DNA of 62,699 nucleotides, counting the filler, from Kipferlia bialata (Eukaryota): the NCBI GenBank assembly GCA_003568945.1. It is 6 parts of 6 records of this genome, joined end to end, with 100 filler letters (N's around TTAATTAATTAA, not from the genome) between each part and the next. Parts side by side here need not be neighbours in the genome. Positions count along the whole stretch, not along the records: positions 1 to 13,124 come from BDIP01000987.1; positions 13,225 to 26,328 come from BDIP01000989.1; positions 26,429 to 39,519 come from BDIP01000990.1; positions 39,620 to 52,697 come from BDIP01000991.1; positions 52,798 to 58,069 come from BDIP01001004.1; 1 more part is not named here. One strand, written 5' to 3'. The number at the start of each line of letters is the position of its first letter. The stretch's first letter is position 1. A program made the translations under genes and the position numbers. Below, piece after piece: positions 9,619 through 55,372 of the stretch. Under the pieces are notes generated by a model that did no database searches, was not told the DNA's origin, and saw only the letters and a program-made list of their open reading frames with translations.

Positions 9619-9860
9619 CCTCTACNNNNNNNNNNNNNNNNNNNNNNNNNNNNNNNNNNNNNNNNNNNNNNNNNCATCAGGGGTTTTTCATCGTCCCCCC
9701 CCCCCCCCCCCCCCCCTCTCTCTCTCTCTTCTTACTCCACTCTGTATACACTATGTCTCATCATCAGGAGTTCTTCATCGTGCCCAGACACCCTCTCTCT
9801 CTCTCTCTCTCTCTCTTCTATGCACTTCATATTGTTACACTATGCCTTCCTAACCCCCAG

Positions 9861-10669
9861 GAGTTCTTCATCGTTCCCAGACCCTCTGCCCGGGGTGACA
9901 ACCCATGGGACAAGTATGTGCTGGGGGGGTGCAAGACTAAGCTGTTCTCAAGGTGAGCATACCACTATTTGTGTACGCTAGTGCTATAGTCCAGGTGTCT
10001 TACGTTTCTCATCATTCTCCACATCTCTCTCAATCATTAGGATGGAGCAGCTAGTCATCTTTTCCAATGTATTATTAGTGATACGTGTAGCATGTGTGTC
10101 TTTACCCCAGAAAGGAGCAGCTAGCCATCCTGACCGATATATATGATGATTGTTTATTTTACTATACTATGTACTTCGATACATAGAATCATATATACAT
10201 ATAATCTAACAAACATATATATGTATACTCTAACCATAAGGAAGGAGCAGCTGGCCATCCTGACCCTGGGCAAGAGCCTCTCATTCCTGAGGGATGCACA
10301 GGACCATCAGTACAAGGTATATATACACTATAAGTATATATATATATATATATATATATGGTGTATATATATTCATATGTATATGTGTGTTTGTATTTAT
10401 GAGCCTTTCTTTCCTCAGAGATGCACAGGACCACCAGTACAAGGTATATATGCATGCACACACTATACTCTATATATGTATATATATTCATGTGTGTATG
10501 TACAAAGATTGGTGTGATAATATACACAGGACCACCAGTACAAGGTATATGTATTCATAGTAAAAATGTATTTCCAATACATACCAGATTCATCTCGCTG
10601 TCTCCCTCTCTGTCCATAGATGTAGCCCGTCTTACAGCAGCTCCCCCGCCCCCTCCTCTCTGAGAAACG

Positions 10670-10702
<33 letters not shown>

Positions 10703-10824
10703 AACTATATTAGTTTACGTCTCGTCTCACCCCAGCTCCCCCGCCCCCTGCTGTCTGAGGCACGTCTTGCAGGGGCATTCACAGTTGACAAGGCAGAGCC
10801 AGAGAGGGTGGCAAGGTGGGATAG

Positions 10825-10867
<43 letters not shown>

Positions 10868-11072
10868 ATCACAGTGGACAAGGCAGAGCCAGAGAGGGTG
10901 GCTAGGAACACTTGTATATTTCTCTCTCTCTCTCTCATACTCATTCTTTCCTCTCTCCTTGACGTGTCGCCAAATACTATTGTCTGTATACACTCTTCAT
11001 ATACAATGTGTATTACTGTGCATTGATACTGATACCAGCCGTGTCATGCCCTTTGTGGACGTGGCCTACAGA

Positions 11073-11109
<37 letters not shown>

Positions 11110-12474
11110 TCTCTCTGTCTGTATATCTCACCCCAGCCGTGTGATGCCCTTTGTGGATGTTGATATTATCTCTCTCTCTCTCTCTCTCTCTCCTACTTCC
11201 CTAATCCCCCTTACCCTAGCCGTGTCATGCCCTTTGTGGATGTGGCTAATAGGCATGTGGCACAGAGGGTGCTGTGGATACTCAACGACAAGTACCACAT
11301 GGGTGAGTGGTATACATGTATATCTGCGCTGTAGTATTAACTATGATATGATACTACATAGTCTGTGTCTAACCCTCCAGCAGACCACCTGAGTGGCATC
11401 AGGGACCTAATCTCTCTCTCTCTCTCTCTCTCTCCTCCTCCCCTCCCCCCCCCCTCCTATACCTCTTCTATATATATATACATGTGTTTACCTGTATATG
11501 TATCTAATACCAGCCGACCACCTGTCTGGCATCAGGGACCTGGTCACCCTAGGCAGGGGTGACTTTGCATCAGTCCTGCTGGCAGACATCGTCACAATCC
11601 TTGGTATGTGCTATATATATATATACAGTATTCTGTATATACAGTATATAGAGATATATACCCTTTGCATCAGTCCTGCTGGCAGACATCGTCACAATCC
11701 TAGGTATGTAGTGGTGTCTGTATAGTATATATTGACAGTATATATTGATAGTATATATATACCCTTTGCGTCAGTGTTACTGGCAGACATCGTCACTATC
11801 CTGGGTATGACATACATATGCAGTATTGTATATATACAGTATGCATATGTATGTATGCATCAGTCCTGCTGGCAGACATCGTCACAATCCTGGGTATGTA
11901 TATGTATGTATATATATATATATCATATATGGTATTGTATGTAGGATATTGTATATGGGATACTATATGTGTAAGATATATCTATACTTTGCATCAGTCC
12001 TGCTGGCAGGCATCGTCACAATCCTAGTATTAGGTTTGTGGAGGAGTCGTGTTTCATATATAGAGAGTCTATCCATCTAATACCAGACCGTGATGACTCC
12101 TCCAGACTGTTGAGGAACAGGGTGTCAGACATAGTGTCTGGGGCACTGTCCAAGAGTAGTGCAGGTATGGGTACATAGACTAGTATAGTAATGTATGGGA
12201 GTATCTCTTACCCCAGACCGCCTCCCCCTGTATGTCAAGCAGGCTGTGGATGTGGCAGTGAGGGGCAAGAGGACAGCGGGAGGGGCACAGGCATCAGGTA
12301 TGTGTGTATACTATATGTGTTCTATGTAAATAGTATACGTATATGGTGTGTTCATATACGGGAAGAGGACAGCGGCAGGGGCACAGGCGTCAGGTATTGT
12401 AATTATTGGTGTATAGTGTATATTGGATGTTGTGTGATATTCGTGTGGCACTCAGCTGGGGCTCCTTCAACCTG

Positions 12475-12515
<41 letters not shown>

Positions 12516-25568: not shown

Positions 25569-25870
25569 ATGCTGACGTGAGTGCTGATTGACTGTACAGG
25601 CATCAATGGGGACCGGACGGGGAGGGGGGGGAGTGGGGAGGGGGCATGCAGAAAAGTATGGGCTAGAGCACGATACCAGTTATCCTACCTGCAAGTGTGG
25701 TCGGAGTCTAGGCCTGTTTGTTGGTTTGTGTCTGAGAGTAACAGTTGAAGAGGACAGCCACCGTGATTCGGAGGTACACTGCCACTAACTGTGAACCCTT
25801 CTTTTTGCCACGAAGGCAAAGAGCGCAAGACTAGAACGCAGGTTCAGAGTCTCTCTCTATCCTCTCTATC

Positions 25871-27945: not shown

Positions 27946-28475
27946 GACCCCATCTAAAACCAGTTCACAGTCTAGCGTGTGTTTGTCGGAGGATCAGTCC
28001 ACTGGACTGAGAGTACAGTAAGTGAGACTCAATCTCAGTGTCCCGGTGGTGTCGCAAGTACGGTATTAGTTGGCAGCGAATATAGACACGACAGAATCTG
28101 TTAGGAGGTTGCCATCCCAATGCATAGCCCACATTTCACAAGTAAAGAGGTCCAGTCTATTTCATACAACTCAGCCTACTATGTGATATACGGCATTCTA
28201 GTACAGTGTAATAGAGTGTGTCACAGGTATCACACTATTCAACTCCTACCACCTCCACCAAATATCTTCATCATAGCGGGGGTCAGCTTGCTCTCTGAAC
28301 AGCTGGTTCCCTGCATCTTTCAGCGAGGATGCAGTGTTTACACACATCATGCCAGGTGTCACCTGGCCCAGGTGACAAGAGTCTGAGATTCTGACTGATT
28401 GTTTTTGGCTCAATGTAACTACACCCTTTTGTGTCGGTGCAGGTTGACAAGGAGCTCCTCTTCATCTCCACAGTG

Positions 28476-29054
28476 ATGCGCGTCCTGACTCTGTGCTGCC
28501 TGGCTCTGGTCTGTGTCGCATTGGGCATGTCTGTCCCATCTAGGCACCCCGGGGTGTACTACTGGGGAGTCCCAGACTCAACTCTCAAGGTACATGTTTA
28601 GACAGTACATCCGTTGTTGAACTTAGCCTTCATCTCTCACCCCCAGCTCGAGGTCTTCGGCGATTACACCTGTGACGCCACAGCTGACTTCTGGTATGTT
28701 TTGGTATCCACGTACATTCCCCCCCCCCCCCTCCCCCTTTACCACCCACATACACATTACAATATACCTCCTCTGCTTCTGTTTGTCTCTCCGTCCCTCT
28801 TACCCCAGGCTCAATGTGGTCGAGCCCCTCATTGACCCCTCCAACCCCTATGGTCCACTTGCCATCAGCCAGTTGGCCGTGGTCTACTACCCATTCAGCC
28901 TGCCCTACCACGCTGCATCATTCTCGGCATCCAAGGTATATATTAGCTAATATATATATATATATATATACTTTCAAATATATTGGCTGGTTTATACATA
29001 CTATGTATGTACGTCTGCCCTACCACGCTGCATCATTCTCGGCATCCAAGGTAT

Positions 29055-29101
<47 letters not shown>

Positions 29102-29221
29102 CATATACATACATATGTACATATACCTACTATATATACTCTGCATCATTCTCGGCATCCAAGGTATGCATACGTGTGTTGACTTTCCTCTCTCAATATT
29201 CATGTTATAATCTTCTTTGTC

Positions 29222-29268
<47 letters not shown>

Positions 29269-29410
29269 CCTCCCCCCTCTTCCTCTTGGTCCTCAGGTAA
29301 TGACCACCCTTAACCTCATACATCCGGAAATATGCATTTTAGTATATAGCAACACTCTAGCTACTGACACCAAGGTCATGTCCACCCTTCACCACACAGA
29401 AGCACAATAT

Positions 29411-29450
<40 letters not shown>

Positions 29451-31730
29451 TTATATATTCATTTTGTCTTCTCTGACATAGGTCATGACCACCCTTGACT
29501 CCCTGAGGGTGAACTCCAGCCTCTTGAACGACAAGGAACAGCACGCAGCACACAAGTATCTCTTTGAGAACCAGGTATCCATTCTCTGTTCAAATGTGGT
29601 ATTCAAACCCCAGTACTATCAACATATCGGGAGATTGAGCTTCACCTCTCTTTCAGCGACTGTTGAGATATGTTGAAGCCATACCACACTCTGTCATTGG
29701 AGTTCAGTGTGCACTAGCATCATTTTATTGATTGTATGTGCCATACCATCTATACCATCTGTACCATCTATTTCCTATACACTCAGGCTGTGCTGTACAA
29801 TGATGCTACCCAGCATGCTGTCACTATATTACAGTATACATTAGCATGTTCGTATTAACAATGTGTCCTTTAGATACTACTTTCTACCCCGTAGGCTGTG
29901 TTGTACAATGACGCCACCCACAATGTCACTAGACCTCCCGACACCCCTCCCTCTCTCTCCCCCTCTATCTCTCTCTCCCCCCCCTCTCCCTCTCTCTCCC
30001 TTACATCCAGGCCGTGCTGTACAATGATGCCACCCACAATGTCTGTTGCATCATTATATTGATTGTATTGATCATATCATATGTCATTAACCATCTGTTT
30101 CCTCTACCTTTAGGCTGTGCTGTACAATGACGCCACCCAACAATATGTCACTCTATTACAGTTTACATTAGCATGTTCGTGTTAACAATGTGTGCTTTAG
30201 ATTCTAGTTTCTACCCCTTAGGCTGTGCTGTACAATGACGCCACCCACAATGTCACCAGAGACGACATCGAGCAGACAGTAATGGATATAGGTGAATACT
30301 ATATATGTGTATTGTATATATATTGTATATATATTGTTATATATACATGTATGTGACCAGAGACGACATCGAGCAGACGGTGATGGACATAGGTGAGTAA
30401 TATTGTGTTTGCATATATATATATATATATAAATGTATATTCATATATGTGTGTGTGTATACTGTATGTCTATTGATATATATATATATATATATATGTA
30501 TGTGACCAGAGACGACAAATTGAGGAGACGGTCATGGACATAGTTGAGTACGATACTGTACACACACACAACGACACTATAGTGTCACTCCCAGTCTATG
30601 TTTGATATGCGTATCACTCTCTCAACCCCAGTCTGTGCCACCCCTGAGATATCATATATTATATATGTGTTTGAATATATGTATATATATATCATATATC
30701 ATATATATACACACAATCTCTCACCCCCAGTCTGTGCCACCCCCGAGATATCTGACACTGTATACTATACCGTATTAAAACTACACATACTATATAAATA
30801 CTATATATGTATATATCTCACCCCCAGTCTGTGCCACCCCCGAGATATCTGAGACTGTCTGCACTGCCCTGCACAATGGCTTTGCAGACACAGAGAGTGA
30901 CACACGGAGTGTGTGGAAGGTACACATACATACATACAAATATTTATATATATATATGTGTGTGTGTGTGTCAGCTGCCGGACACTGTCAAAACCACCTA
31001 TACACACTCTGTATCCACTTTGTGGTCACTGTATGCTCTACTACTATGTGTCTGTGAGCACGATGTATCCGGTACCTACCCATTCACTATACAGCCACAT
31101 AATGTACCCTATATACCGTGTCCCTAATGTCTTACCCCCAGTACAGCTGTGAGCACGGCGTGTCTGGCACCCCCACCACCCATGTCAACGGGGTGGCATT
31201 CCAGGCACCATTCTACTGGGGAGTGGAGGTGAGCACTCCATATACTACTATATTCGTATGTATACCCTCTCTGTGTCTGTGGGGTCATCATTCTACTGGG
31301 GTATAGAGGTACTCACATATATATATATATACATCTATATACCTATCAATACTCTCTCCCTGTGTCAACGGGGTGGCATTCAAGGCGCCATTCTACTGTG
31401 GTGTGGAGGTGAGTACTCTGTATACTAGGATTACTATATACGTATGTATACCCTCTCTTTGTCTATGGGGTCGCCATCACTCTACTGGGGTGTAGAGGTG
31501 GGTACTCGTACACACACACATATAAACACATATATATATATGTGTATTTACAATATGTATACTAATTGATACCCACTATACTCTGTCGAGCTGATGGCAT
31601 TGCATTGGGGAGTTGAGATATGAGTATACTACCTTGCACATTATTGCTCTATAGATACATCACTCACATCCAGGAGTGGACCAACTTCCTGCTGGGTCTC
31701 CTGGACACACCATACTCTGTGGACTTGTAG
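28476..31730 (+). CDS. Secreted thioredoxin-fold DsbA-like protein, multi-exon
   Basis: Signal peptide MRVLTLCCLALVCVALG; LEVFGDYTCDAT (single Cys); PFSLPYH; K/YSCEHGVSGTPTTHVNG (cis-Pro GTP motif); ends PYSVDL*. Confidence 0.75.
29780..30550 (+). repeat. Echo arrays around one DsbA-like exon (4 upstream exon-start copies, 2 downstream exon-end copies)
   Basis: AG|GCYGTGYTGTACAATGAYGCYACCCA repeated; GTGACCAGAGACGAC…ATGGACATAG repeated. Confidence 0.9.
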
Positions 31731-35027: not shown

Positions 35028-35719
35028 TGTGGCCGTGGGTAGCGACCCATTGGATGGTCAGGGGTATGCCCGGGGCCCAGCACTACAGGGATCCTGCCTG
35101 GATGTGTTTTCTATTGTATCAGGCCAAGGCACCCCTGGTCTCTGTCTGGGTACTGTCTGTAGCCACCAGTGGCACAGGGTGCATGTCCCATCTGGTCATG
35201 AGACATGTATGTGCTGTGACCCATACCTCCAGGTCAGGGAACAGGTCTGAGAGAGATGTCCTCCTATGTAGACGGAGTACCCAGGTCACATATCAGGCCA
35301 TTCGATGTGTAGAGAGAGTAAGGAGAGAGAGAGAGAGAGGGGTCCCAGGTGGTGCATGACCTAGCACTCTCTTCTAGGTGCAGGTGGTGTGGCCGCGAGC
35401 CCCCCTTTTCCATGTATTATTAATAGCCCCATTGGGCACCAAGAATATACCGTATCTGTATGTATATTTATATATGTCGATGATTTGACCCAGACCCAGA
35501 CCCAGAAGTGAGTTTCAATCATCGAATTCACGAGGTGAAATGCCTAGTCAAAAGTCCGTTTCCAAGCGATTGGGATTGCAGTGTCGGGTCTCTCCACTCT
35601 TTCACCCACATCAGCTGTGACCACTGACACCTTGATATCACCTTGATATCACCTTGGTGAGCTGTACGACACCGTCCAGCCGGTTCTCAGTCCGATAGGC
35701 ATCGGCCCCTGAAAATATC

Positions 35720-36858: not shown

Positions 36859-36892
<34 letters not shown>

Positions 36893-39455
36893 GTGTACTA
36901 TACTAGTCCTTGTGTCCCACCCCAGGCTGACCCCCTCCGACCTCGCCCCCTCCATCCCTGAGTACTCCGGTGAGCTGGATGCCCTGGTGGCCAGTATGCA
37001 GATGGAGGCAGAGGCAGAGGCAGAGGCAGAGGCAGAGGCAGAGGCAGAGTGTCCGGCCCTCGCATCTCCCTCCAACCTCTCAGACAGATCCTACAGGACA
37101 CCACCACAGGTGCACACTCTGTATGTGGATATAATCCCCCCACTCCTTCATTCATCTCCTCTATCTTCCCCCTTACCCCCAGGACGGATACCCCGTCCCG
37201 TCTCGATCATCTGCCTCACCCAGACACACCTCGGAGGAGTATGAGGCTGGGTATGAGGGGGAGAGTGGGATGGACACTGACATGGCAGTCAGAGGGGGCA
37301 GGGCACCCCCCCTGAGTCGTAGTGGCAGGCTTGCTGCATCGTACACCGACCCCCACCCCTACTCCCCTGCCACCATGCACCGGAGACTGCAGGACAGGAG
37401 GGGGAGGGGGGTGTTCCTCAACGCCTCAGAGATGGACGCACAACGCAGACACTCGGATGTACTACTGGGCAAGAGTCAGGTACCACAGGGAGACTGGGTC
37501 TGGATCTCTCTCTTTCTGCTGCTCTCAATAAGTCTGACCCCAGATCTGTCCCTTCACGCTGCTGGACTCCACCCCCCCTCCCTCTGCATCGGCCATCGAC
37601 TCAGACGGTGAGGACACCCGCACCCACATACACCCCACCCACCCATCCCCCTTACCCCAGAGTCCTCCAGACACCTGCATGACTATGATGCTAGGGACTA
37701 TGAGCCTCCCACCTCTAGTAGGTGTGTACACAGGGGTGGGGTGAGAAGCCAGGCTGACATGATATCACTCTCTGGCCTCGTACCCGGCAACACCCCCCCC
37801 TGCCTGGAGATGTCCCCCCTGCCCCCCATCCCTGCCCAGGCGCCTGCCCCCTGCTCCTCCCCCCAGAGCCCTGTGCACCGGGTGATAGATGTGCCTGCCT
37901 CCCCCCTCGCTGTCCCGGGCATAGTAGCCCAGGTGGAGCGGCACTCGACAGAGGACATACCAGTGACCCTGGTGCTGCCTGAGGGGTACCTGCATACTAG
38001 GGAGAGACGCAAGGAGAGGGACAGGGAGAGAGAGAGGGACTGCCCCCTTGACACCCTGGCTAGGGTGGTCAGACAGTGCAAGAGAGGTAGGAGAGGAGTG
38101 GATATGGTGATAGTTTCGCGTTATGCATTCACTATTGAGTCTGACAATACCCCCAACCCCACCCCAGGCCACATATCCATAGTGGTGGGTCAGAACCCAG
38201 AGCTGTCTGTGCCCATGGACGCCCCCACCTGCCTCACCCTCTCCCTCCTGTCTGTGGGTGTCACTGTCCTGGGGGCACCCAGGGCCACACACTGCGCACA
38301 CTGCGGAGACGGCTCTACACGGTGGGTGGGAGTGAGTAGTGTTCCTGTTGTGTACCCTCCCAAGCCCTCTCACCTGAAGGTACTACTGCTCCCCCTCCTG
38401 CTGGGTGGCAGATGCCACAGTCAGACACGCGGCAGGGACCTGTTGCATGCCAGGTATGAGTGTATTGTATATAGAGTGTGAGAAACATATAGTATATGGG
38501 CATATGATACTGATAATGTGTGACACTGATCCCAGGGTGTGACGCACTGGCCAAGGCCCAGACCCCCCCCTTCTCCACAGTGAGTGGGGGCGAGGGGTGC
38601 AGCGGCATGAGCAGCGGGACGGGGTCCGAGGGCAAGTGCCAGCCCCGGCTGTACTGCAACCTGTGCATGCACACCCATGCCTCCAACACAGTCAGGTGGC
38701 CACGCTGCTGGACGTCTACGTGATATATATATATATATATGTTGAGATGCCTCTGTCTGGGAGTGTTTCGCTCTGGTCTATGGTCTATGGCCTCTGCCCC
38801 TCCTCACTATCAGGCAGGTCCTGGGTCTATGTGCCCACCCCATGTGTCCTCAGGAGCCAGCCGAGAACAAGCCCTGTTGCTGCCGGTCGCACTTCATCCT
38901 GTGGAGGAGGGGGGAGGGGCTGGGGGAGGGGGCGGTGGAGGCCGTGGAGGCTGAGATGAGGAGGGAGAGGCTGGCCATGAAGGCCAAGCGGAAGAGTAGG
39001 AAGGAGGCTAAGCAGAAGGCGAAGGAGGAGAGAGAGGGCAGAGAGGCCAAGGAGGTCGTGAAGCCCACCCCCCATACTGCCCCCCTCCCCTCTGCCCATC
39101 TGAGTAGCCCCCTGACGCCCTGTGCCCTACCAACTGCACCTGGCACCACAGGCACACAGTGCAGGGCCACCCTGCCCCTCCCCCTCCCCCTGCCTGTCCC
39201 TCTCCCCCTGCCATTGCCTGGGTCACCTGCCTCCAGGCACAGACCCGCACCCTCTGCACCCAATGCCTCTGCCCTCGCATCTGCCCTAGGGTCTGCCCCA
39301 GGACCGGCCACACAGGCCATGGTCCCTACTGCTATGCATAGTGCACTAGTGCCCCCTAGGGTGGGGCGGACAGTGGCCCAGTGGGGGGAGAGCTATGCCC
39401 CACACACTGTGACAGACAGACACATTGTAGAGGACACCGACGTATTGTCGCCCAG
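35720..39455 (+). CDS. Hypothetical multi-exon Pro/Ser-rich protein with a MYND-like Cys cluster; ends uncertain
   Basis: Chain of GT-AG-bounded exons with (EA)n, HCAHCG…YYCSPSC…H…C, YCNLC and a K/E-rich helix. May be more than one gene. Confidence 0.45.
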
Positions 39456-39470
39456 GTACGAGTACTTCAC

Positions 39471-39519
<49 letters not shown>

Positions 39520-39563
39520 NNNNNNNNNNNNNNNNNNNNNNNNNNNNNNNNNNNNNNNNNNNN

Positions 39564-39575
39564 TTAATTAATTAA
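39564..39575. other. Artificial contig linker TTAATTAATTAA
   Basis: Identical N-flanked spacer. Confidence 0.95.
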
Positions 39576-40388: not shown

Positions 40389-43300
40389 ATGTCCATGCGT
40401 GGCGGTGGGCGTAGCGTGCCCCTGAGGTCAGGGGCCAGACCAGGCTCCGGCAGTGGTGCCAGGCCCCTGAGTGGGGCCAGGAAGAGACCAGGTACTGAGA
40501 GTGTGTATGCAGTACTATATATGAATGATCATAAGTGTTTCTCGGATAGCATGTACTATTATACAGGTCGTGCTCACTGTATGTGTGTTTTATACGCATA
40601 CAACTGCTCTGTATGTGTTATATGAGACTTGGGATATGATACTGGGTGTGTATTTGACATAAGTACATGGGGATGTATCCTCTCGATTACCAGGAGTCCT
40701 CTCTCCACCTACGTATATATACCCATTAATGCTGCATGTACTGCATATTGGTGATATCCATTCGTGTGCGTGTCTCTCTCCCACCCCCGGGTACCCTCTC
40801 CCACTTCCACCTGTACATGAATGTGCATTGACTACATGTTGCATACAACTCTGATTACATGTATCTCTCTCTACTCTATCCTCCACCCCCAGGTACCCTC
40901 TCCCTCTCCTCCCCTTATACTTCTTACTTCCTATACACATTCACTGCATGCCTATACTCTTCTCTATCGTCCATATACATCTATTGACCCCAGGCGCCCT
41001 CTCCCTCTCCCATATACGGAGACTGACTATATAAACATATATATATACATCTATATATACTGACCCCAGGTGCCCTCTCCCTCTCCTCCCCCCTGTCCTC
41101 CAACATGGGACTGATGGTGTCACCAGGCAGAGGTAACACTATATAGTAGTACATGTGTATATTGTGATAGTGTATATATGGGACTCATGTTCTGCCCTGG
41201 AAGAGTTGTGTCTGTGCATTACTTCATATGTATTACAGTGTATTAGTATTGATGTGAATACACTTTGAGTATTCATGTGCATATATGGTTGCACTACTAT
41301 GTATATACCCTGACCCCCCAGCCCCTGCCCCCTCAGGCACCCCTAGTGTGTCTAGTGTGGCAGGGGAGAGAGAGAGAGAGAGGCAGAGAGAGGGGGGTGG
41401 GCCCCCCGCGTCACCAAGGTATATCACATATATATATTCTATATATATATGTTATTCTATACCAGGTGAAATCTTCGCTCACCCCCAGCCGCCAGCCCCT
41501 CTCCCTCTCCCTGTCCCGTACCCTTATGCAGTCCCCGCCCTATCCTATGCCCCATACGGTGGGACCAGCATCCACGCTAAGGCCTAGGTATACATACGGT
41601 TTATATATATATATATATGCATATATGTATCAGTCCCCGCCCTACCCCATGCCCCATACGGTGGGGCCTGCATCCACGCTGAGGCCGAGGTATAGTATAT
41701 ATGTATGATGTGCATACTGTATACTATGCTTCTAACCCCCAGCCATTCCATTGCGGAATATGGATGCCATCGATGGATACTATATGTATGTACAATCCTG
41801 TCTATATTACAATGCATTCCTACTCATCCCTAGCCCTGTCCACTCCATGCGCAATGTTGATGACATTGTGAGGAGTGGGATGGGACTATATACACATATA
41901 TATATGTATATATNNNNNNNNNNNNNNNNNNNNNNNNNNNNNNNNNNNNNNNNNNNNNNNNNNNNNNNNNNNNNNNNNNNNNNNNNNNNNNNNNNNNNNN
42001 NNNNNNNNNNNNNNNNNNNNNNNNNNNNNNNNNNNNNNNNNNNNNNNNNNNNNNNNNNNNNNNNNNNNNNNNNNNNNNNNNNNNNNNNNNNNNNNNNNNN
42101 NNNNNNNNNNNNNNNNNNNNNNNNNNNNNNNNNNNNNNNNNNNNNNNNNNNNNNNNNNNNNNNNNNNNNNNNNNNNNNNNNNNNNNNNNNNNNNNNNNNN
42201 NNNNNNNNNNNNNNNNNNNNNNNNNNNNNNNNNNNNNNNNNNNNNNNNNNNNNNNNNNNNNNNNNNNNNNNNNNNNNNNNNNNNNNNNNNNNNNNNNNNN
42301 NNNNNNNNNNNNNNNNNNNNNNNNNNNNNNNNNNNNNNNNNNNNNNNNNNNNNNNNNNNNNNNNNNNNNNNNNNNNNNNNNNNNNNNNNNNNNNNNNNNN
42401 NNNNNNNNNNNNNNNNNNNNNNNNNNNNNNNNNNNNNNNNNNNNNNNNNNNNNNNNNNNNNNNNNNNNNNNNNNNNNNNNNNNNNNNNNNNNNNNNNNNN
42501 NNNNNNNNNNNNNNNNNNNNNNNNNNNNNNNNNNNNNNNNNNNNNNNNNNNNNNNNNNNNNNNNNNNNNNNNNNNNNNNNNNNNNNNNNNNNNNNNNNNN
42601 NNNNNNNNNNNNNNNNNNNNNNNNNNNNNNNNNNNNNNNNNNNNNNNNNNNNNNNNNNNNNNNNNNNNNNNNNNNNNNNNNNNNNNNNNNNNNNNNNNNN
42701 NNNNNNNNNNNNNNNNNNNNNNNNNNNNNNNNNNNNNNNNNNNNNNNNNNNNNNNNNNNNNNNNNNNNNNNNNNNNNNNNNNNNNNNNNNNNNNNNNNNN
42801 NNNNNNNNNNNNNNNNNNNNNNNNNNNNNNNNNNNNNNNNNNNNNNNNNNNNNNNNNNNNNNNNNNNNNNNNNNNNNNNNNNNNNNNNNNNNNNNTTATA
42901 CTATAGGGAGAGAGAGGGGGGGAGGCAGGTGCAGACGGCTAGGCCAGGTGGGTACACATTACACTGTTGTAATATATACATGTATACTGTATATTAATTT
43001 GTGGGGTATAGAGAGATATGAGTAAGGGGAGGCAGGTGCATACTGCTAGGCTGGGTAGATACTGTATGTACTGGAAGAACTCGTATAATTATGGAATGTG
43101 TACCAATAGTGTTATGGTGGTCACATATTCATTCATAGTCATCTCTATACTATTATTACTATACATCCTACCCCCAGACCTCAGACCTGCCAACACCGCC
43201 CCCCACCCATATGAGTATTACACTAGTATTTACGTGTACCAGTATTATATGTATCATTTATACACCTCTCACCCCAGGCATCCGACGTGCCAACACGGCC

Positions 43301-46300
43301 CCCCACAGGAGTAGAACGGTCAGACCACCCACCAGTGGGGGGACAGGTACATATCATATATATCATAGGCATAGCAGTGTCAGTGTCACTATCACAGTGG
43401 TATCAGTGTCAGTCGCCATAGTGATACATCTGTACATCTATACTGACACAGGCACCCAGAGGGGTAGGAGACAGAGACCAGAGACAGCACCAATGCCCAG
43501 GGGAAGGGGGAGGGGGAGAGTGGAGGTATGTATCTAGTGCATATTTGTGTATATGTATGTATGTATATATATATATACTAACCCACAGGCCAGACTGGAG
43601 GTTGCCATGTATATGTGTATGTGTGTGAGTACTCATATATTGATGTATAATTATGTTAATGTCTCACTCTAGGCCCGACTCGAGGTTGCCAATATAAATG
43701 TGTATGTGTGTGTGTTCAGTATATATAATTATTGTATACAATATCAATATATACATATACACATGTCTCACTCTAGGCCAGACTCGAGGTTGCCTCTCTA
43801 CATATATATATGTGTTTGTGTCTCCCTCCAACTCTATATCTCTCTCTCTCGACACTTCTTTCACCCAGTATATGTATGTGTGTATGTATCTATATCTATA
43901 TATAGATATATATAGATAGATATATATATGTATATATATATATATACTAATTAGTGTCACTCCCCCCAGGCCCGGCTCGAGGTTGCCTCTCTCCTCAAGG
44001 ACACCAACATGGGGCAGCTGATGGAGACTAGGTATAGTGTGAGTACACATATATATAGAGAGAGGGATATATAGAGGGTGGTAGAGAGAGGGGGGGGGGA
44101 GGGCGCCAACATGGGGCAGTTGATGGAGACGAGGAATGATATCTGATTAAAGGTCTCATATACCCTATGTTGTGCATACTCTCCTACGCCCAGGAACCAT
44201 GCCGTGAATGCATAGATATATACATATTGACATATGAATATAGGTGTTCTATTTCGTATTCACACACATTCTCTTTGACCCCAGGAACCGTGCCTCTGTG
44301 GATGATGTGAGCATATATATATACATGTTGACTAATATATATATATATATATATATATACTATTCTGTATATATACATATGCATTCTATCTAACCCTCTA
44401 GGAACCGTGCCTCTGTCGATGATGTGAGCAGGTGGTACCTGGACCAGCTAGACAGGTATAGTTGATGTATAGATAGATAGATATGTATTGTAGATGTATG
44501 GATGGATGGATATTCATACATATATAGATATGTGTATATATACATGTATTATGTATAGTAGGTGCTACCTGGACCAGCTGGACAGGTACCGTTTATGTCA
44601 CATTTGTACACAGTATTCCATTGTCGATATATGGCTCACCCTTTAGAGTCAGTTCCACCTCTTCAGGCAACATCCATCGTGGCAGTTATTCATTCTTAAT
44701 TTCCTACTGGTTTATCACTCAATAGTATTCTGCATACCCTCACCCTAGAGTCCGTTCCACCTCGTCTGGCAACAGATACCTGATATATATGTATGCCATA
44801 CATACAAGTATATTCTTATCATACCCCACATCCATTGCATCTCATTGTAGAGTCCGCTCCACCTCGTCTGGCAACAGACACCTCAGGGAGAGGATGTCAT
44901 ACAACATGCACCTGGACCTACTGGCAAGGTATGAATGCGAATGGCCACCTTGTGGATATATGTATATATTATATTCGACCTGCATGCCACTCTTATCCCA
45001 GGATCAGTGCGTCTGACATGTCGTACAGATGGCCCTTCTCTCTTTTCCCCTCTTTCTCTAATCATATACATCCCTCTCTATATACTCTTACCCCAGGATC
45101 AGTGCCTCCGACATGTCGTATGGGCACCTTGTGGAGAGGGTCAGACAGCAGATGGAGGGGGAGAGAGAGAGAGACAGGGCGTCCCAGGTCTCAGACAGAC
45201 AGGAGATGATGACGGAGATTGTCAGGCTCCAGAGGGACATTAGGTACCTAGACGACTTTCGTATACATAAATATGTGTATGTTGTCTCTCTCGCTTACCC
45301 CCAGCATGATAGCATACATGTGATATATAGCTGTCTGTGTGCTGTGTATATGAATATAATCTATTCTCTAACCATTTAATGTCATGTCTGAGTCTGTGAC
45401 CCTGGAGAAGAGAGTATATATATTCTTAGCATGTTTATATGAGTATCATACACTCTAACTCCTCAGTGCCCTGTCTGAGTCTCTGACCCTTGAGAAGAGA
45501 GAGTGTGTATATACTATATACATCCAATATATATATATATATAATAACTGTAGTCTAACCTCTAGTGCCCTGTCTGAGTCTCTGACCCTTGAGAAGAGGG
45601 CAGCCATCAAGGAGGAGGCGCTGGTGCAGAAGCTGAGGGCTCAGGTATGATATATGTATGTATATATATATATTACTATATTGGTACATATAGTGATGGA
45701 ATGGGTATGGATACATGGTATCCAGGAGGAGGCACTGGTGCAGAAGCTGAGATATATGTGTGTGTATGTGTGTATGCGTATATAGATATACGCAGTGTGT
45801 ATGTATTGATATATACACGCCATAACCCTCTAGGCAGCTGCCAGGGACATGCGTATTAGACACCTGGATACCGTATATATACCATATACATCATTATATA
45901 TACGTATATATTGTATAGTGTATGTGTATAGTTTGTAGGCATACATCTTATTCTAGGCCGCTGCCAAGGACATGCGCATTAGACACCTGGAGGCCCAGCT
46001 GGCAGAGGAGACTAGCCCCAGGGCAAGGCTCGAGACGGAGGTATGTGTATGTGTTCTGTACACTACATATACTGTACGATATGTGTACAGTATACAGTAT
46101 CACCCATTGTCACTCACCTTGTAGGTCCGTGACCATGTGAATGACCTCAATGTCTATCTATATATTAATACACTCCTGTATATTCATTACTAATGACTCT
46201 CTCCAACCCTCTAGGTCCGTGACCATGTGAATGACCTCGAGGGCCTAGCCGAGTTCACCCTGCCCTCCGATGCTGAGGACTGGCAACCGAGTGAGGCACC

Positions 46301-46316
46301 TGACGACGTCAATTGA
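40389..46316 (+). CDS. Hypothetical protein with an R/P/S-rich N-terminus and coiled-coil C-terminus; spans a 1-kb gap
   Basis: Exons give RPGSGSGARP…RPETAP…MMTEIVRLQRDI/SALSESLTLEK…KDMRIRHLEAQLAEE…APDDVN*. Confidence 0.55.
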
Positions 46317-47414: not shown

Positions 47415-48888
47415 TTAGTGTCTCATGTGTGTGTCTACCCTGGCATTGATTACATCCGTGTCCACCTCTAGGAGGTAGTGACACCCAAACACAGAGCGAT
47501 AGGGGCCGAGCTGGTACACCTTGGGGGGATATGTATGGCTGGTTCCAATGTGGGGTATGAGATCACGTGGTGGGTACTCCCTGCTCATTCGAAACAGTGT
47601 GACACCTCCTGGGGTAGGTGTGTCTACACGAATGAGGTCATGAGGTTAACTCTATACTACTTGAGTTTCCATGAAATTACGGGCTTAAGTCAGGAGATTG
47701 ATAGATGTACTCTTTCACATGGTGATATATCTACCTGAGACACAGTCCAGAACGTATATGATGCCTCCGAATATGCGCACGTCGATTGTGCCATACACTC
47801 CCACTCTGGCAGCCAGTGAGTACGGGGCCTCACCAACAGGGGTGTTGCTGGCACAGATTGTTGCGGCCACATTGCCTGTGTAAAGGCGGTGAGAAAGTCT
47901 CCAGCCCACCTCTGGAGAGAACATCAGGTCAAGTGTGTCTTTCCACAATGCGGTTACCCCCACAGCCCTCAGGTGGTCACCCGTATCGTCCCAAGGGGTT
48001 ATGGTTTCCAAATTCACTCTGTGTATTAGGGGTACACGCATGTTGGATGGCGTCATGTCCTTCCACTGTCTACTGTCTGGATTGAAGGACGCAGTAGCCG
48101 TGCCCTCCCCTATCCCAGGTATGACACGTGTACCTGTCACAACCAGCTGGCCTTCACACTGAAAGGCCTTTCCATAATCAAGCACACGTGGCCAGTACTC
48201 TTTATCCGTCTCTGCAGGGGGTGTCACTTCTTCCCACTCTCTTGTGTCACTGTGGAATATGTGGAGGGAGTATATGTCACGTCTAGGAGCGTATGACGTG
48301 CAAGACTCTCTGCTGTACCCAAGCACATAGACGTCTCCCCCGACAACAGTGGTCAGGCTAGGACCTCTCCTGTCTGGCCAGGGGTATGTCTCAAGGGTGA
48401 CTTGTACATCACTGTCTGACAGGGTGTCACTCTGGTGGGTGGGGAAACTCAGGACTCCACAAAGAGGGTGAAGGGAGTGGTACCTGACAAAGACCTAGGG
48501 AAAGGGATGGATAGAGGCAGAAAGACATCGCAATGACCTCAGAATCCAATCCAAGCATACAAATATGACACCTAAGTATACAGTTGAGTACCTCGTTGAC
48601 TCCTATGGGGTAGAATGCTGTCATACACCTATCCGCCTCTGGTGATGGTTCCCCATCGCAGGACACCAGGTCAATCTTGCGGAAGGAGAAACCACAGCTA
48701 TTGTCAAATGGGAACTGAGACCTCTCCTCGGCCTCCAGTGCAAGTTTCTTTCTTGCTCTCTCGGCTTCCTCCTCTGCCAGTCTCACTCTACAGTCATAGA
48801 GGGGTCCAGTATCGGCCTCTGTATCAGAACATTGGGTGTCTGACTGGGAGTCCGTCCATCCCGAGTCACCCTCACTCATGTCACTCAT
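47415..48888 (-). CDS. Hypothetical kelch-like beta-propeller protein, few introns; 3' exon structure uncertain
   Basis: Acidic N-terminus; TTVVGGDVYVLG, HSDTREWEEV, FNPDSRQWK, IFGGIIYVLD kelch-like strands. Confidence 0.6.
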
Positions 48889-49681
48889 TGTCACTCTTAC
48901 CCTCGGACTTGGGTACAAATGTTAGTGTGCGGTGTTCCAAGAGTAGTGTCACGTCCCGAAAATTCCAAGTCAGGTCCAATAGTGGGCTGATTGAAGTTAT
49001 TGGTTTATGGTAGAGAGACTCAGCATAGACCAGCACCATGTGTCCAGTCTACAGTTTGACTCCTTCAACAGTGCCGATGTCTAGCTGTAGTGACTCTGGA
49101 CTGTACAGTGCACATAGACTATACACTGTATAGTATACAGTGCATGTACAACTAAATAGGAGGATAACTGAGTTACAACTCCTCTAAGTCCAACCTACAC
49201 TCGGGATATCAAGCGTAGCATGGTACTGATGCGACTCGCTCCCCACCTTACAGTTCCCATATCAAGAGGGTCCTAGAAAGGTATGACGAGATACCATCGT
49301 ATATACATTAGAGAGAGACTCCTCTTATCTATACCTGTATCATCTACCAGTATATCAGAGTCAAATCCCATTCAGGCACTCGATCTATTCACAATACTAT
49401 TCATTCACAGTAGACTCAGTCTACTGTAGAGTGTCATCCTATTAGGAATTGCCTAGGTCCTCCTAAATACTGCCTCTACCGGTACCTCTCCTCCCCAGCA
49501 GACAGAGGCACCTCTTAGTATCACTTTGCACAATATAGTACATCTTGCCACACTATATCTATTCACAATTTCATTCCTTCCTTCATTCATTCATTCATAC
49601 TGTCTTAGCAGTCCCTGTCATAGCAGACAGAAACCTCCAACTGTATACAGTGCTTCATGCACTATACAGAATATAGTGTAT

Positions 49682-51429
49682 CTACCAGTACATCTCCTCC
49701 CCTGGGCATGGGTGGTCTGGGTGGACGGGGCCAGACCTGACACCGGCCATGACAAGCTGGCACCTGGGGTAAGGGGGATACGCAGTCTATTAACACAATA
49801 CAAACATCCAGTAACTATACCACATAGTTATATGTGTATGCCATGGCAGGCTGGCACCAGATAATGAGGGGGGGGGGGGGGGGCAATCAAGGCCTCCAGT
49901 TGCTACACTATACACGTTTGTATTCAATATACATACAATACCTGAAGCCTGCCAGCCTAGGGATGGCCACGTCTATGTCTGCCTTATATATATTCTAATA
50001 TGTNNNNNNNNNNNNNNNNNNNNNNNNNNATGTCTGCCTTATATATATTCTAATATGTATATATGTATACACACACACACACACACACGTATATATATAC
50101 AACTATACCTGAAGTCTGCCAGCCTGGGGATGGCCACATCTATGTCTGATACCTCCTTCTGGGACCACAGGCGCTCGGCAACAGCAGCGGCCCTGGGGGT
50201 TAGTATATATATATACTTACATATGTATGCTGAGAGTATACTAAACTCGGCAACGGCTGCGGCCCTGGGGGTTGGTATATATTTATATATATATATATGT
50301 ATGCTGAGAGTTTCATGAGCTCGGCAACAGCTGCGGCCCTAGAGAGTCAGAGAGTCCAGTGATGGTACATGTATATATATATACAAATATATATATATAG
50401 TTATAGACGCTCGGCAACAGCTGCGGCCCTAGAGAGTCAGAGAGTCCAGTGAAGATATATGTATATATATATACATATATATATATAGTTATAGACGCTC
50501 GGTAACGGCAACGGCCCTGCAGAGTTAGGAACATGCATGCGTGGAAACGTATTATGCACCACTATCACATGTATGAATCCGGGCCATATCCAGGTGTCAA
50601 TGTTGTATATATCTATAGTATAGATTCTCTATATAGTATACTTATATCTATGAATACTACCAATGTACCTTGGCCACATCCAGCTGTCGATGTTGGATGC
50701 ATCTCTCTCTCTATAGATATCCCTCTACTCATATCCCTGTACTATTATTACTATACATATATGTACATAAATATTACCTTGGCCATATCCAGCTGTCGAT
50801 GTTGGCAGCGTCGATGGCCTCACCCCACATGGGGACCTCTCCTCCTGGGGTAAGGGTATACAACATCTACACTGTATATATATACACAATCCATAGTATC
50901 TGTCACATACCACACCGGGACCTCACCGCTTAAGGTGAGAGTGGTATGTATACGATAAGAGTTAGAGAAGACATACCCAGGATCAGGGCACCCTCGTGCT
51001 CATATACACATATATAGAGTATACACATATATACATGTATAGATACATATGTATACATATACCATCCACAAACCCAGAATCAGTACCTCTTCGTGCTAAT
51101 CAAGGTAAGAGTAGAATAATGTATGCATAGTACTGTATAGTTAATACACATATATGCCACCCACCAATGATCAGTGCCTTCTCGTGCTCGTCTAGGTCGA
51201 CACCCATACATATAATTTATATATCAATAATATATATAATTACAGTATATATATATATATATATACATGTATCATACCCAGAATCAGGGCCTCCTCGTGC
51301 TCGTCTAGGTCGAGGCCGGCGGTGGGCTCGTTGCTAGGGTTGGCATGTGTGTGAATATCGTGTATACTATATCCAATCTATTTCAACTCAGTATATAAAT
51401 TTATGTATAGTATTAATATATATATATAC

Positions 51430-51462
<33 letters not shown>

Positions 51463-52277
51463 CTATCTACCTGTAGAAGTTCTGCCAGGTGTCAGCAAAG
51501 AAGAAATGGTATTCAAATATTAGTAGTACATATTACATACCTATATCATGTATATGTATATATCAATAAACACTATATATACTGTATTCTAAACACTATA
51601 TACCTGTAGAAGTTCTGCCAGGTGTCAGCAAAGAGGTAGTGCGTGGGGTATCCTGGGATCTGCTTGTCCAGGTACCAGCCGCCTACAGTGAGGGGGGGGG
51701 GGGAGTGAGTACGTATGAGTGCATGTATATAGGAGGGGAACGAATATGTACGATGACTACCTGACAGTAGACCCCTGTACCCTGCCTTGACAACATATGC
51801 TATATACATCATACAATAATCATACTACATTGAATACTCTATGATATATTCGTCAATACTGACCTGACAGGAGTCCCCTGTACCCTGCCTTGACAATGTC
51901 TCCCAGGGTGGCCTGGTCCTCCCAGGACTGGGGGTGAGGGGGATATATAAACATATGCGTGTGTATGTGTGTATGTGTATGTATGAGAACGTGCTATACT
52001 AGAGGGAACGTATTCTCTTACAGTGGTGGTGCAACAGAATGATAAAACAACAGACAATAATACATGTATGTATACATATACAATACGCTTATATATGCAC
52101 CCACCTGCACAATTGTGTCGAGGGGGATGGGGTTTCCGTTCTGGAAGGTCTCCTGCCACACAACCTGGCTGGGGGGTGAGGGGGGTTACCACAACATATC
52201 CACATGTATATACATATACACTATTATCTCACGTGACCCCCTCTGGCATGACTGTGTTGAGTGTCTCTCTCTCTCCT

Positions 52278-52319
<42 letters not shown>

Positions 52320-52430
52320 CATATACACCATTAACTCACGTGACCCCCTCTGGCATGACTGTGTTGAGGGTCTGTGTGAAGTATCTCCACAGTCCATGCA
52401 CATCACTGATGTCATGGGCAGCCATCCAAG
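49682..52430 (-). CDS. GH20 beta-N-acetylhexosaminidase, 3' half
   Basis: Spliced QVVWQETF…GYRGLLS/GGWYLD…TWQNFY…ILG/GEVPMWGEAID…IWP/RAAAVAERLWS…PRLADF/RCQLVMAGV…HPC, the HEXA/HEXB C-terminal signatures. Confidence 0.9.
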
Positions 52431-52651
52431 CTGGGGGTGAGTGCACACATAGATACATATATGATATATATATTCAAGGAGACAATTCATGGCTGTTACC
52501 ATATTACGTATCCATGAATACCCACATCATATATATACTCACATCACGTGACAACAACAATGGATGAATGTATGTTTAACACAATTGTAGGGTGATCATA
52601 GACTGCCATCCAGTCGGAAAGGATATATGGAATAGGATGTGAGAGAAAATG

Positions 52652-52697
52652 TGGACAATCAGGGAATTGAACCCCGGGCCTCGTGCATGCTAAGCAC
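52652..52697 (-). tRNA. tRNA-Ala (AGC), 3' part; 5' end lost in a gap
   Basis: Minus strand GTGC-TTAGCAT-GCAC anticodon arm, CGGGG-TTCAATT-CCCTG T-arm, acceptor 3' …TGTCCA, then a TTTT tract. Confidence 0.8.
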
Positions 52698-52741
52698 NNN
52701 NNNNNNNNNNNNNNNNNNNNNNNNNNNNNNNNNNNNNNNNN

Positions 52742-52753
52742 TTAATTAATTAA
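52742..52753. other. Artificial contig linker TTAATTAATTAA
   Basis: Identical N-flanked spacer. Confidence 0.95.
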
Positions 52754-52899
52754 NNNNNNNNNNNNNNNNNNNNNNNNNNNNNNNNNNNNNNNNNNNNGGG
52801 GGGTTATGGGGTAGAGAGAGAGGGGAAGAGAGGTAGGGGGCAGGGGGGAAGACATAGAGAGAGAGACAGATAGAGAAAGGGAGATATGTGTATTCATAC

Positions 52900-53530
52900 C
52901 TATCAGCGGGGTGTGGGTATGGGTAGCCACTGTACACCTCGTCACAGACCAGGTCCCACAGCACACTAGTCTCAGATAGTCCATCACAGGTCCTAGATGG
53001 TCCTAGCACCCTAGCAGCTACTGGAAGTACCAGCCCAGCCACGCTAGGGGGCAGGGTGTGGATACCCTTGAGATAGGCTGTGACAACATCAGACGGAGAG
53101 GGCTCAGTTGACTCTGAGAGACTGGAGGGACTAGAGGGACTACGGGGACTTCTCGAGACTTCAGGAGTGTTCCAGAGTGCCAGCAATGGGTGGGGTGGGG
53201 TCTTGTCCCTGTGTGTCAACAAACAAATATCGAGTACATATACAAGAGAACCCTCAGATACATATAGAGTTATACTGTGTCACCTGGTATTAATGTTCAA
53301 ATGAATACATAGGTGTGTACCTGAAGCAGTGTGCGGCCAGACTACTCCTCAGAGAGTATATCGAGTATAGTAAACAGTACTTACTCATATACATACATAC
53401 TACGTCACTAGGTATTGATGCTCCGTGTGTGAATGAAGATACTATGTCACTAGGTGTGAATACATATGTGTACCTGAAGCAGTGTGCGGCCAGACTACTC
53501 CTCAGGGGCTCAACCAGCACAGAGGCCATG
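52900..53530 (-). CDS. Hypothetical protein fragment (at least 2 exons)
   Basis: MASVLVEPLRSSLAAHCF ends at CAG|GTAC; a second long open exon DKTPPHPLLALW…YPHPADR ends at a GTATG donor. Confidence 0.4.
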
Positions 53531-53789
53531 CCCCACACACTCTCTCTCTCTCTGTCTCCCTCTTTGAACTAACTGTCTCTCCCTATCCTCCCTCTGTCGT
53601 CCAGTCAGCTGCCCAACTACCCGTTACCAGTACAACTGGCTCTGGAGTCAGCACAGATACCCTACTGCACCTACACTCTGCTTATAAAAGAGGTGCTAGG
53701 CTAGTTTGTACTCATATATATGTGTTCTGAAGAAGGGTGTAGCTCTTTTTGTGCCTTGATAGCTCTTCCTGTCTTCTCCTCGATGACCC

Positions 53790-55372
53790 ATGGAGGAAGA
53801 CTCTGACGAGGATGTGTTTATAACCAAGCAGGAGTGCAAAATGTATGCCAAGTACATGATAGCAGTGGGGTGAGTTGATGTTTATATATGAGATATTCTA
53901 ACAGTGTATCCTTGTCTCACTGCCAGGCACCGTTGCTGGAGAGTGCTATCTTTCATGGGTCTTCCCGATGGCCTAGTGATGACTGAGGAACAGAAACTGA
54001 AGTCTTTCATCTCTCTGAGGTTGGGCATGGGTCTGCAGATGAGATGTTCAAGGTATGGAGCACTGTATAAAGTAGATATATAGTATATATAGTATATATA
54101 GTATATATAGTATATAGTGTATATTCATAGTGGGGATGGGTCTGCAGATGAGATGTTCAAGGTATGTGTAATATATGGTATATGAAGTATACATGTGGTA
54201 TATATAGTATATAGTGTATATATATAGTATCTATCTCTCAGGATGGGAATGGGTCTGCAGAGAAGGTGTTCACGGTTTGTGTCATGTGCTATAGTTCAAT
54301 GGATATATGTATTGTATATTGTGCAAAGATTTTTATAGTGGAAATGGTGCATGGAAGGTGTTCATGGTATGTATCACGTGCGAATATTATACTCTTAGTA
54401 GATATAGTATGGGTAGCACATCGTATATATATACAGTAGAGATATTTGATACACTGGACGTATATCATGCATGTATACTCTATATCTGGAGAGGAAGTGT
54501 ACAAGAGAATTAACCAAATATGAGCCTCTTTGTTTGTGTTCTCTCTCTCTCTCTCCCTCTCTCTCTCTCCCAGCTCTCAGCTCGGTCGTGATTCTTTTGT
54601 CATTTATATAATATATATATATAATATATATATATAATATATATTGTATTGTGTACCACTATTTATTATTGTTTATATACAATATAGTATTGTATATTGT
54701 ATTATATATATCGCATGTGGCTGTCTCTATACTTCTTCTGTATTCCTCCTCACCCAAGCGCGAAGTGGGGAGCCCTTGACTATGGAGCTATAAAGCATGG
54801 GTATATGCCAAAGGTACTGTAGTCAATACAATAGTATTTCATAATTATAATGGACAATACATTAGTTTTACATACATGTAATTTTACTAGATACAACTGC
54901 TCTCTTTAGTAGTATATATGTGTGTGTGTTTATCTAGTTGCATGCATAACTCTGAGAGGTTTCCAACCATACACTATAAATGGGGTATTCTTCCATGCCA
55001 AGTAGGTCTTTACAAGTGTCCGAATTGTACATATATATATATCCTTATCAGTGTCGTCACTGTTTATGTATTATGTCTAGTTAAATCCTCTCTCTCTCTG
55101 GGTCATCTTTTCGTTGTACTATTCTCTCTCTCCCTCTTGCTCACTTGGAAACTTCCTCGGAGTCTTATGTTCGTATGGGCTCCCAGATCTTCTCTCTCTC
55201 TCTCTCCCTCTTGTTAATTCCTTAGGAATTCTCCGAGGTGTTCTATGCTAATGTTCGAAAGTATGGGCCGCCAGATCCATCCGATCGGCTGACAGAACTT
55301 AAGCAGTGGAGGCGCCTCTACAAGCCACTTCTTCCATTACTCAAACTGGCGCTCCATAACAACTTCATCTAG
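53790..55372 (+). CDS. Small hypothetical protein (4 exons), copy A of an inverted paralog pair
   Basis: MEEDSDEDVFITKQECKMYAKYMIAVG/HRCWRVLSFM…GLQMRCS/AKWGALDYGAIKHGYMPK/EFSE…DPSDRLTELKQWRRLYKPLLP…*; exon-for-exon match to copy B. Confidence 0.8.

What the first reader, a model, noticed from the sequence alone, without database searches (positions are those of the whole stretch)
9675..54380. Polar 'exon-echo' architecture: introns filled with partial copies of the adjacent splice junctions
Seen: in GCP3, ABCA, the DsbA-like gene, the coiled-coil gene, hexosaminidase and the genes at 53.3 and 54.1 kb, many exons carry 1-5 short copies. Upstream copies are [acceptor AG + first codons]; downstream copies are [last codons + GT donor]; (TA)n/(CT)n/(GA)n spacers lie between them. 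The polarity was consistent in every array I traced: exon starts echo upstream, exon ends echo downstream, always in the gene's orientation, on both strands and on five separate contigs. Inference: a genome-wide intron-expansion process that duplicates splice junctions. I do not know of this as a described system.
Basis: partly seen in the sequence, partly recalled or inferred. Interest (0 to 1): 0.92.

Follow-up and report, generated by a model that had tools for sequence, protein, structure and literature searches.

The report
Introns storing other alleles' exon ends
In a free-living protist, many introns hold stacked, spliced-out copies of the neighbouring exon ends, like the lancelet 'mirage' repeats, but these copies differ from the exon mainly at silent codon positions, so they are likely pieces of other alleles left by recombination and would be a record of hidden sex.

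Summary
Real. The window is six Kipferlia bialata scaffolds. Of 134 modelled introns, 50 hold 107 partial copies of a neighbouring exon; all are on the stated side, none reversed. Seven genes have them (50 of 70 introns), 13 have none (0 of 64), so 'genome-wide' is unproven. DNA contigs span 17 copies unchanged, and a spliced ABCA contig fits outermost-site splicing to the base. The structure is described: amphioxus 'mirages' and human F7-type junction minisatellites. This scan also noted it in urchin and other DNA. The polarity is simple geometry of tandem duplication. New here: the density (about 109 nt of intron per copy) and a codon signature. Copies differ from their exon at 3.7% of 0-fold but 21.9% of 4-fold sites. 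The ratio is 0.17 (95% 0.13-0.23), against 0.50 for simulated dead copies. Nearest copies show 1.5% versus 18%. Best reading: copies came from, or recombined with, other functional alleles about 0.18 apart at silent sites. This is inferred; no second strain was available.

The parts
9675..13027 (+). GCP-family gene fragment; 16 copies in 6 of 7 modelled introns, plus copies before the first and after the last modelled exon
11563..12025 (+). GCP3 exon end (11514-11603) followed by four donor-side copies
13237..23612 (+). ABCA transporter gene fragment, 33 exons; 40 copies in 22 of 32 introns; a spliced contig uses the first donor and last acceptor
17462..18196 (+). Functional exon end plus five donor-side copies (about 53 nt of exon, period about 135 nt); no listed DNA piece spans the whole array
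19420..19794 (+). Acceptor-side copies before exon 19735-19794 (3 above threshold, more by eye), inside one unbroken DNA contig
28476..31730 (+). Thioredoxin-like (DsbA-like) gene = P0001; 15 copies in 4 of 7 introns, including a two-unit block duplication (29717-29933 vs 30048-30260, 83%)
40389..46316 (+). Coiled-coil gene (two models either side of an N gap); 19 copies in 10 of 13 introns
49682..52430 (-). Hexosaminidase-like gene fragment; 14 copies in 6 of 7 introns, including four acceptor copies at 50246-50516
49466..49506 (-). Copy of the last codons and stop codon of the hexosaminidase-like gene in its 3' flank; no splice site is involved
53321..53352 (-). Donor-side copy of exon 53474-53529
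53790..55372 (+). Gene PA = P0002; donor-side copies at 54131-54161 and 54234-54272, and a weaker one near 54348
54234..54274 (+). Second copy in PA: 4 of 41 differences from paralog PB but 7 of 41 from its own exon; every encoded residue matches PA or PB
55968..57471 (-). Inverted paralog PB, same intron positions, no copies detected (comparison locus)

Best explanation
These are mirage-type tandem duplications of about 100 nt, each spanning one exon-intron junction and spliced out of the mRNA (seen for ABCA), whose exon parts were likely copied from, or later recombined with, other functional alleles in a highly polymorphic, recombining population. Steps: (1) Shown: each unit is a genomic junction, exon end plus intron start or intron end plus exon start. 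(2) Inferred: units about as long as an intron must cross a junction, and only those crossing one junction leave the mRNA intact, which fixes the polarity. (3) Shown for ABCA: the first donor and last acceptor are used. Inferred: the spliceosome pairs the nearest acceptor and donor across the exon, or mis-spliced RNA is destroyed. (4) Inferred: unequal exchange or template switching between homologous chromosomes feeds other alleles' exon ends into the arrays. This gives each copy a floor of about 0.18 silent-site difference, on top of slow neutral decay at all sites.
For: Junction units: the copy's intron flank resembles the real junction's flank more than other introns do, in 37 of 50 donor and 38 of 54 acceptor copies (p about 3e-5 each). 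Period median 103.5 nt, IQR 95-118. Real DNA: contigs of run X1 span 17 ABCA copies with no differences, at depth 377-434. Splicing: 8 of 8 listed pieces of a 2,797-nt intron-free contig give the same offset (2662) against my model, across 28 introns, 19 of which hold 32 copies. Annotated proteins P0001 and P0002 also follow outer sites. 37 of 104 copied sites score at least as well as the used site. Codon signature: 0-fold 73/1954, 4-fold 114/520; bootstrap ratio 0.13-0.23, and simulated dead copies give 0.49-0.51. It holds in each of the 6 gene models with more than 50 0-fold sites and for all four bases. Copy-versus-copy is 5.7% and 25%. From nearest to farthest copy, 0-fold rises 1.5% to 4.6% (p=0.004) while 4-fold stays 18% to 21% (p=0.65). 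The implied floor is 0.18 for both sets, with no overdispersion among copies (p=0.36). Decay looks neutral: stops are 4 of 86 non-synonymous changes (4.4% expected), and 11 of 101 junction dinucleotides are lost. Only 9 of 104 copies have any in-register route into the mRNA. Fornicates lack NHEJ, rely on a Dmc1-based recombination system, and metamonads keep key meiotic genes (PMC8516963 passages).
Against: No second allele or strain was seen. Run X1 shows only two variant places in 9.5 kb, at summed double depth (an extra copy rather than an allele); contigs hide rare variants. A metagenome scan with P0001 found no relative. The 0.18 figure rests on a two-parameter model of mine. Intron parts of the units are far less alike (43% ungapped over 20 nt, versus 33-36% for unrelated introns) than the silent sites, which needs fast indel turnover or refreshing of the exon part only. 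Exon parts never exceed 59 nt (0 of 62 arrays over 60 nt, about 18 expected under uniform breakpoints), and the model does not explain this. It does not explain why 13 genes have none. One PA copy is closer to a paralog, so templates need not be alleles. RNA evidence is one gene, from the same sample as the DNA; X1 may be the source of the assembly.
Confidence: 0.6

Rival explanations
1. Plain mirages arising within one lineage (slippage or sister-chromatid exchange). The copies are dead, and the codon bias comes from exon silent sites evolving much faster than intronic DNA.
For: Simplest; matches the published amphioxus picture. The nearest copy is most alike in 15 arrays versus 4, with 8 ties (p=0.019). 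Breakpoints are shared within arrays.
Against: Equal rates give a ratio of 0.5. Nearest copies would need exon silent sites about 11 times faster than neutral (1.5% vs 18%). Copy-versus-copy differences are just as biased.
Confidence: 0.15
2. The copies are under protein-level selection because they are sometimes spliced in, or swapped for the exon end.
For: Low 0-fold divergence. Gaps in only 6 of 104 copies. Non-synonymous changes are slightly more conservative than random (p=0.052). The PA copy encodes only residues found in PA or PB.
Against: Each copy lacks a partner splice site, and 95 of 104 have no in-register route. Periods fall evenly in all three phases (32/32/40). Stops occur at the neutral rate. 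The ABCA contig contains no copy. Gene conversion within one lineage still predicts a ratio of at least 0.5 (my algebra, not simulated).
Confidence: 0.1
3. Templates were paralogs or homeologs (an old hybrid or polyploid state) rather than alleles of a freely recombining population.
For: PA copy 2 is closer to paralog PB (4/41) than to PA (7/41). It would give the same codon bias.
Against: Arrays of 4-5 copies each carry different silent variants, and the distance is homogeneous across genes and copies. No second copy of P0001 was found among proteins of 75-2000 aa, a weak search with 2 candidates.
Confidence: 0.1
4. Assembly artefact: divergent alleles stitched in tandem.
For: It predicts the same codon bias. 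The assembly is short-read SPAdes. The period is close to a typical short-read length (recalled). Duplicated flanks occur at short N gaps, and the five-copy array is not spanned by a listed piece.
Against: A second assembly of the reads gives unbroken 0.4-1.6 kb pieces through 17 copies at single-copy depth, with novel exon-to-spacer junctions. Up to six distinct versions occur per junction. The paper reports one non-bacterial coverage peak. One unbroken mRNA contig matches the exons with no differences.
Confidence: 0.05

Closest known systems
Amphioxus 'mirages' (Adh3, globins BflGb6/9, TnC, PGBD5); PMC3087553 and PMC3902484, passages read
   Same: Minisatellite-like tandem duplications spanning 5' or 3' exon-intron boundaries. 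Many but not all units keep AG/GT. Normal splicing is undisturbed. Units are 10-160 bp and 81-100% alike.
   Different: Reported at single loci in cephalochordates. Here they occur in 50 of 134 introns of a metamonad protist and set intron length. The passages read report no codon-position analysis. Concerted evolution within clusters is reported for BflGb6; here copies are as far from each other as from the exon at silent sites.
Human junction minisatellites: F7 IVS7, 6-16, CBS IVS13, LMNB2, PDGF; PMC1557585, abstract and introduction read
   Same: The first unit spans the exon-intron boundary, and the most upstream donor is used despite functional pseudo-sites.
   Different: Rare loci, donor side only in those examples; in F7 the donor sites are identical and the unit holds only 4 exon bases. 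A 5'-3' scan explains donor choice but not the use of the last acceptor seen here.
Human CBS 844ins68; PMC1334203, passages read
   Same: An insertion at an exon boundary adds an alternative splice site, yet mostly normal mRNA is made. That it duplicates the intron-exon junction is recalled, not read.
   Different: A single polymorphic copy at one locus.

Membership tests
mirage / junction-spanning minisatellite | Tandem units span an exon-intron boundary, in the gene's orientation | tested here: met
   107 direct hits and 1 reverse hit; intron flanks homologous
mirage / junction-spanning minisatellite | Both 5' and 3' boundaries are duplicated; many but not all units keep GT/AG | tested here: met
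   41 of 47 keep GT, 49 of 54 keep AG
mirage / junction-spanning minisatellite | Normal mRNA is made from the authentic sites | tested here: met
   ABCA only: constant offset for 8 of 8 listed pieces; minor isoforms are not visible in contigs
mirage / junction-spanning minisatellite | Copy-number instability between haplotypes or cells | not testable with these tools
   One haplotype only; no genome or second strain held
mirage / junction-spanning minisatellite | Concerted evolution of inner units (a reported property, not the definition) | tested here: inconclusive
   Some arrays share variants against the exon, but copy-versus-copy 4-fold distance is 25%
tandem exon duplication / mutually exclusive exons | Whole exon duplicated with both splice sites | tested here: not met
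   Copies cover at most 65% of the exon
introner or other intron-generating transposon | Dispersed family of similar intron sequences across genes | tested here: inconclusive
   Exon parts match only the adjacent exon (5 of 1,600 non-adjacent pairs); intron-to-intron families were not searched beyond 2.5 kb
recursive splicing / nested twin introns | AG|GT ratchet sites or balanced nested donor-acceptor pairs | tested here: not met
   5 of 32 echoed acceptors are followed by GT versus 5 of 38 others; only 12 of 50 introns have both kinds of copy

The most novel reading that the evidence does not exclude
Kipferlia introns are allele archives. Recombination between divergent homologues repeatedly parks other alleles' exon ends beside the junction, so one apparently haploid or homozygous genome carries a dated sample of population diversity (about 0.18 at 4-fold sites). 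This would be genomic evidence of sex or parasex in a metamonad, would supply about half the intron length in affected genes, and would show that a reduced spliceosome picks the outer sites among many equal decoys.
Probability: 0.45. Interest if true: 0.82.

Novelty: new variant of a known kind. Interest (0 to 1): 0.64.

Why it matters
Sex has not been directly observed in Metamonada (PMC8516963). If the copies are other alleles, recombination and population diversity can be measured from a single genome, and the same 0-fold/4-fold test can be run on amphioxus and urchin mirages (both animals are highly polymorphic; recalled). K. bialata's 124,912 introns are used as the picture of the ancestral fornicate state; a process that inflates intron length, and that trapped my own gene finder into false mini-exons, bears on that annotation. 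The arrays are also a natural splice-site choice experiment in a spliceosome with 87 of 174 surveyed proteins (PMC6679479).

Tried and rejected
No whole genome is held, so a genome-wide count was impossible. The run search listed no holder on record as RNA; X2 is a guess, but its contig lacks introns. Runs X3 and X4 gave no cover on ABCA, which is no evidence either way. No RNA result was obtained for the coiled-coil and hexosaminidase genes, so RNA evidence is ABCA only. A metagenome scan with P0001 matched 104 stretches and confirmed none. A search for a third PA paralog matching copy 2 returned only PA itself, 1 of 21 candidates; PB was not returned either, so the search is weak. Pfam gave nothing significant for 6 of 8 queries. 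Base composition as the cause of the codon bias was rejected, as was detection bias. Recursive splicing and whole-exon duplication were rejected. No earlier scan notes were found for this genome, for look-alike stretches or for Kipferlia. Literature: ten searches listed no paper on such repeats in Kipferlia or on codon bias in mirages. The library lacks most subscription papers. The original Adh3 mirage paper and all supplements were not read.
Full report
Source. The window is six scaffolds joined by N spacers. A 42-residue exon matches KIPB_004585 of Kipferlia bialata at 100%, on a 13,091-nt contig, the length of the third piece. No whole genome is held. The published assembly is short-read SPAdes from gradient-purified cells, with one non-bacterial coverage peak (PMC5874029, section 7). 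A word search and section 12 of that paper mention no repeats in introns.

Gene models. Exons of the affected genes and of paralog PB were set by hand from coordinates and give open frames; the DsbA-like exons were fitted to P0001. Twelve control models came from my own gene finder. I corrected one exon, trimmed two models and dropped one doubtful model before counting.

The observation. 107 hits were found in 134 introns at a threshold that unrelated exons reach in 0.15% of 4,020 pairs. 54 are exon starts upstream, 47 are exon ends downstream, 6 are truncated copies on the same side, and none is on the opposite side. Fifty of 70 introns in seven genes carry copies, against 0 of 64 in 13 others. 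Intron length is about 110 + 109 nt per copy (r=0.86). The median exon part is 32.5 nt and never exceeds 59 nt; the median period is 103.5 nt. The copies bring homologous intron flank with them, so they are genomic duplications.

Artefact test. Contigs of run X1, which may be the source of the assembly, reproduce 17 ABCA copies in unbroken pieces of 0.4-1.6 kb with no differences and even depth. Only the 8 longest X1 pieces were listed, and none spans the five-copy array. Flanks of short N gaps are duplicated, so copy number there is uncertain. Only two variant places appeared, at summed double depth.

Splicing. A 2,797-nt contig of run X2 lacks the introns. All 8 listed pieces give the same offset against my first-donor/last-acceptor model, fixing seven intervals over 28 introns, 19 of them with copies. 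P0001 and P0002 agree with outer-site models, but these are predicted proteins. Since 37 of 104 copied sites score at least as well as the used one, context must decide. Cross-exon pairing is my inference. Decay of mis-spliced RNA would look the same in contigs.

Polarity. In a tandem duplication across one junction, the copy attached to the rest of the exon is always the outer one. With introns of about 80-110 nt and exons of about 78 nt, a 100-nt duplication nearly always crosses a junction, and crossing two would change the mRNA. A copy of the hexosaminidase stop region in the 3' flank shows that no splice site is needed. The 60-nt cap (0 of 62 arrays, about 18 expected) and the restriction to some genes remain unexplained.

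The codon signature. I analysed 104 copies, dropping three truncated hits, one of them beside an N gap. They differ from their exon at 73 of 1,954 0-fold sites and 114 of 520 4-fold sites. A dead copy in one lineage should give a ratio of 0.5, and simulation through the same detection gives 0.49-0.51. The observed ratio is 0.17, bootstrap 0.13-0.23 over 62 arrays. It holds across genes, sides and bases, and between copies (5.7% vs 25%). Nearest copies in multi-copy arrays differ at 8 of 533 0-fold and 26 of 142 4-fold sites; farthest copies at 21 of 457 and 27 of 129. So 0-fold difference grows with distance (p=0.004) while 4-fold difference is flat (p=0.65). Subtracting twice the 0-fold distance leaves 0.18 in both the whole set and the nearest set, evenly spread over copies. 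Stops and lost GT/AG occur at about the neutral rate, and 95 of 104 copies have no route into the mRNA. The simplest account is that copy and exon descend from different functional alleles, through unequal exchange, template switching or later crossing-over between homologues. One copy in gene PA is closer to the neighbouring paralog than to its own exon, which shows a non-self or ancestral template but leaves paralogs open as donors. Fornicates lack NHEJ and Rad51A and have two Dmc1 paralogs; sex is unobserved, though key meiotic genes are kept (PMC8516963 passages). No second allele was seen, so this step is inferred.

Known relatives. An earlier scan note gave the name 'mirage', and I checked it. 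PMC3087553 describes minisatellite-like duplications of both boundary types in amphioxus, with undisturbed splicing and an unclear mechanism; PMC3902484 adds PGBD5 and TnC. PMC1557585 covers F7 and four other human genes. The density, the lineage and the codon signature were not listed in my ten searches, within an open-access library and without supplements.

Verdict. Observation confirmed; new variant of a known kind; interest 0.64. The allele-archive reading has probability about 0.45 in its full form and can be tested directly with a second isolate.

Noticed in passing
window 53790-55372 (+) and 55968-57471 (-): Inverted pair of paralogs (135 codons, same three intron positions, no Pfam hit for PA). 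They differ at 13.5% of 0-fold and 27.6% of 4-fold sites; PB's long introns (288-407 nt) have no detectable copies.
   Followed up: partly
window 26848-27946 (+) and 32000-33090 (-): Two intronless, probably related genes with acidic, serine-rich ends flank the DsbA-like gene, facing inwards; they look kelch-like by eye. A similar gene with one intron lies near 47500-48900 (-).
   Followed up: no
window 1-9625, 24050-25600, 34200-39470, 58230-62000: Genes with short, more GC-rich introns (median 81 nt, GC 0.45 vs 0.38) and no copies lie next to heavily affected genes on the same scaffolds; several look like housekeeping genes (Ras, proteasome ATPase, Cys-tRNA ligase, carrier).
   Followed up: partly
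window 16427-16439, 19046-19077, 21616-21647: Short N gaps have exactly duplicated flanks. A single-copy contig with two variants at 21703 and 21712 suggests one more acceptor copy that the assembly lacks.
   Followed up: partly
acceptor sites throughout: A branch-point-like motif lies within about 5-12 nt of the AG, followed by a C-rich run; the exon's last base is G at 69 of 73 training donors.
   Followed up: partly
ABCA, hexosaminidase-like, DsbA-like and coiled-coil genes: A naive gene finder inserts the copies as 6-17 false mini-exons per gene, so ab initio annotation of this genome may overcount introns.
   Followed up: no
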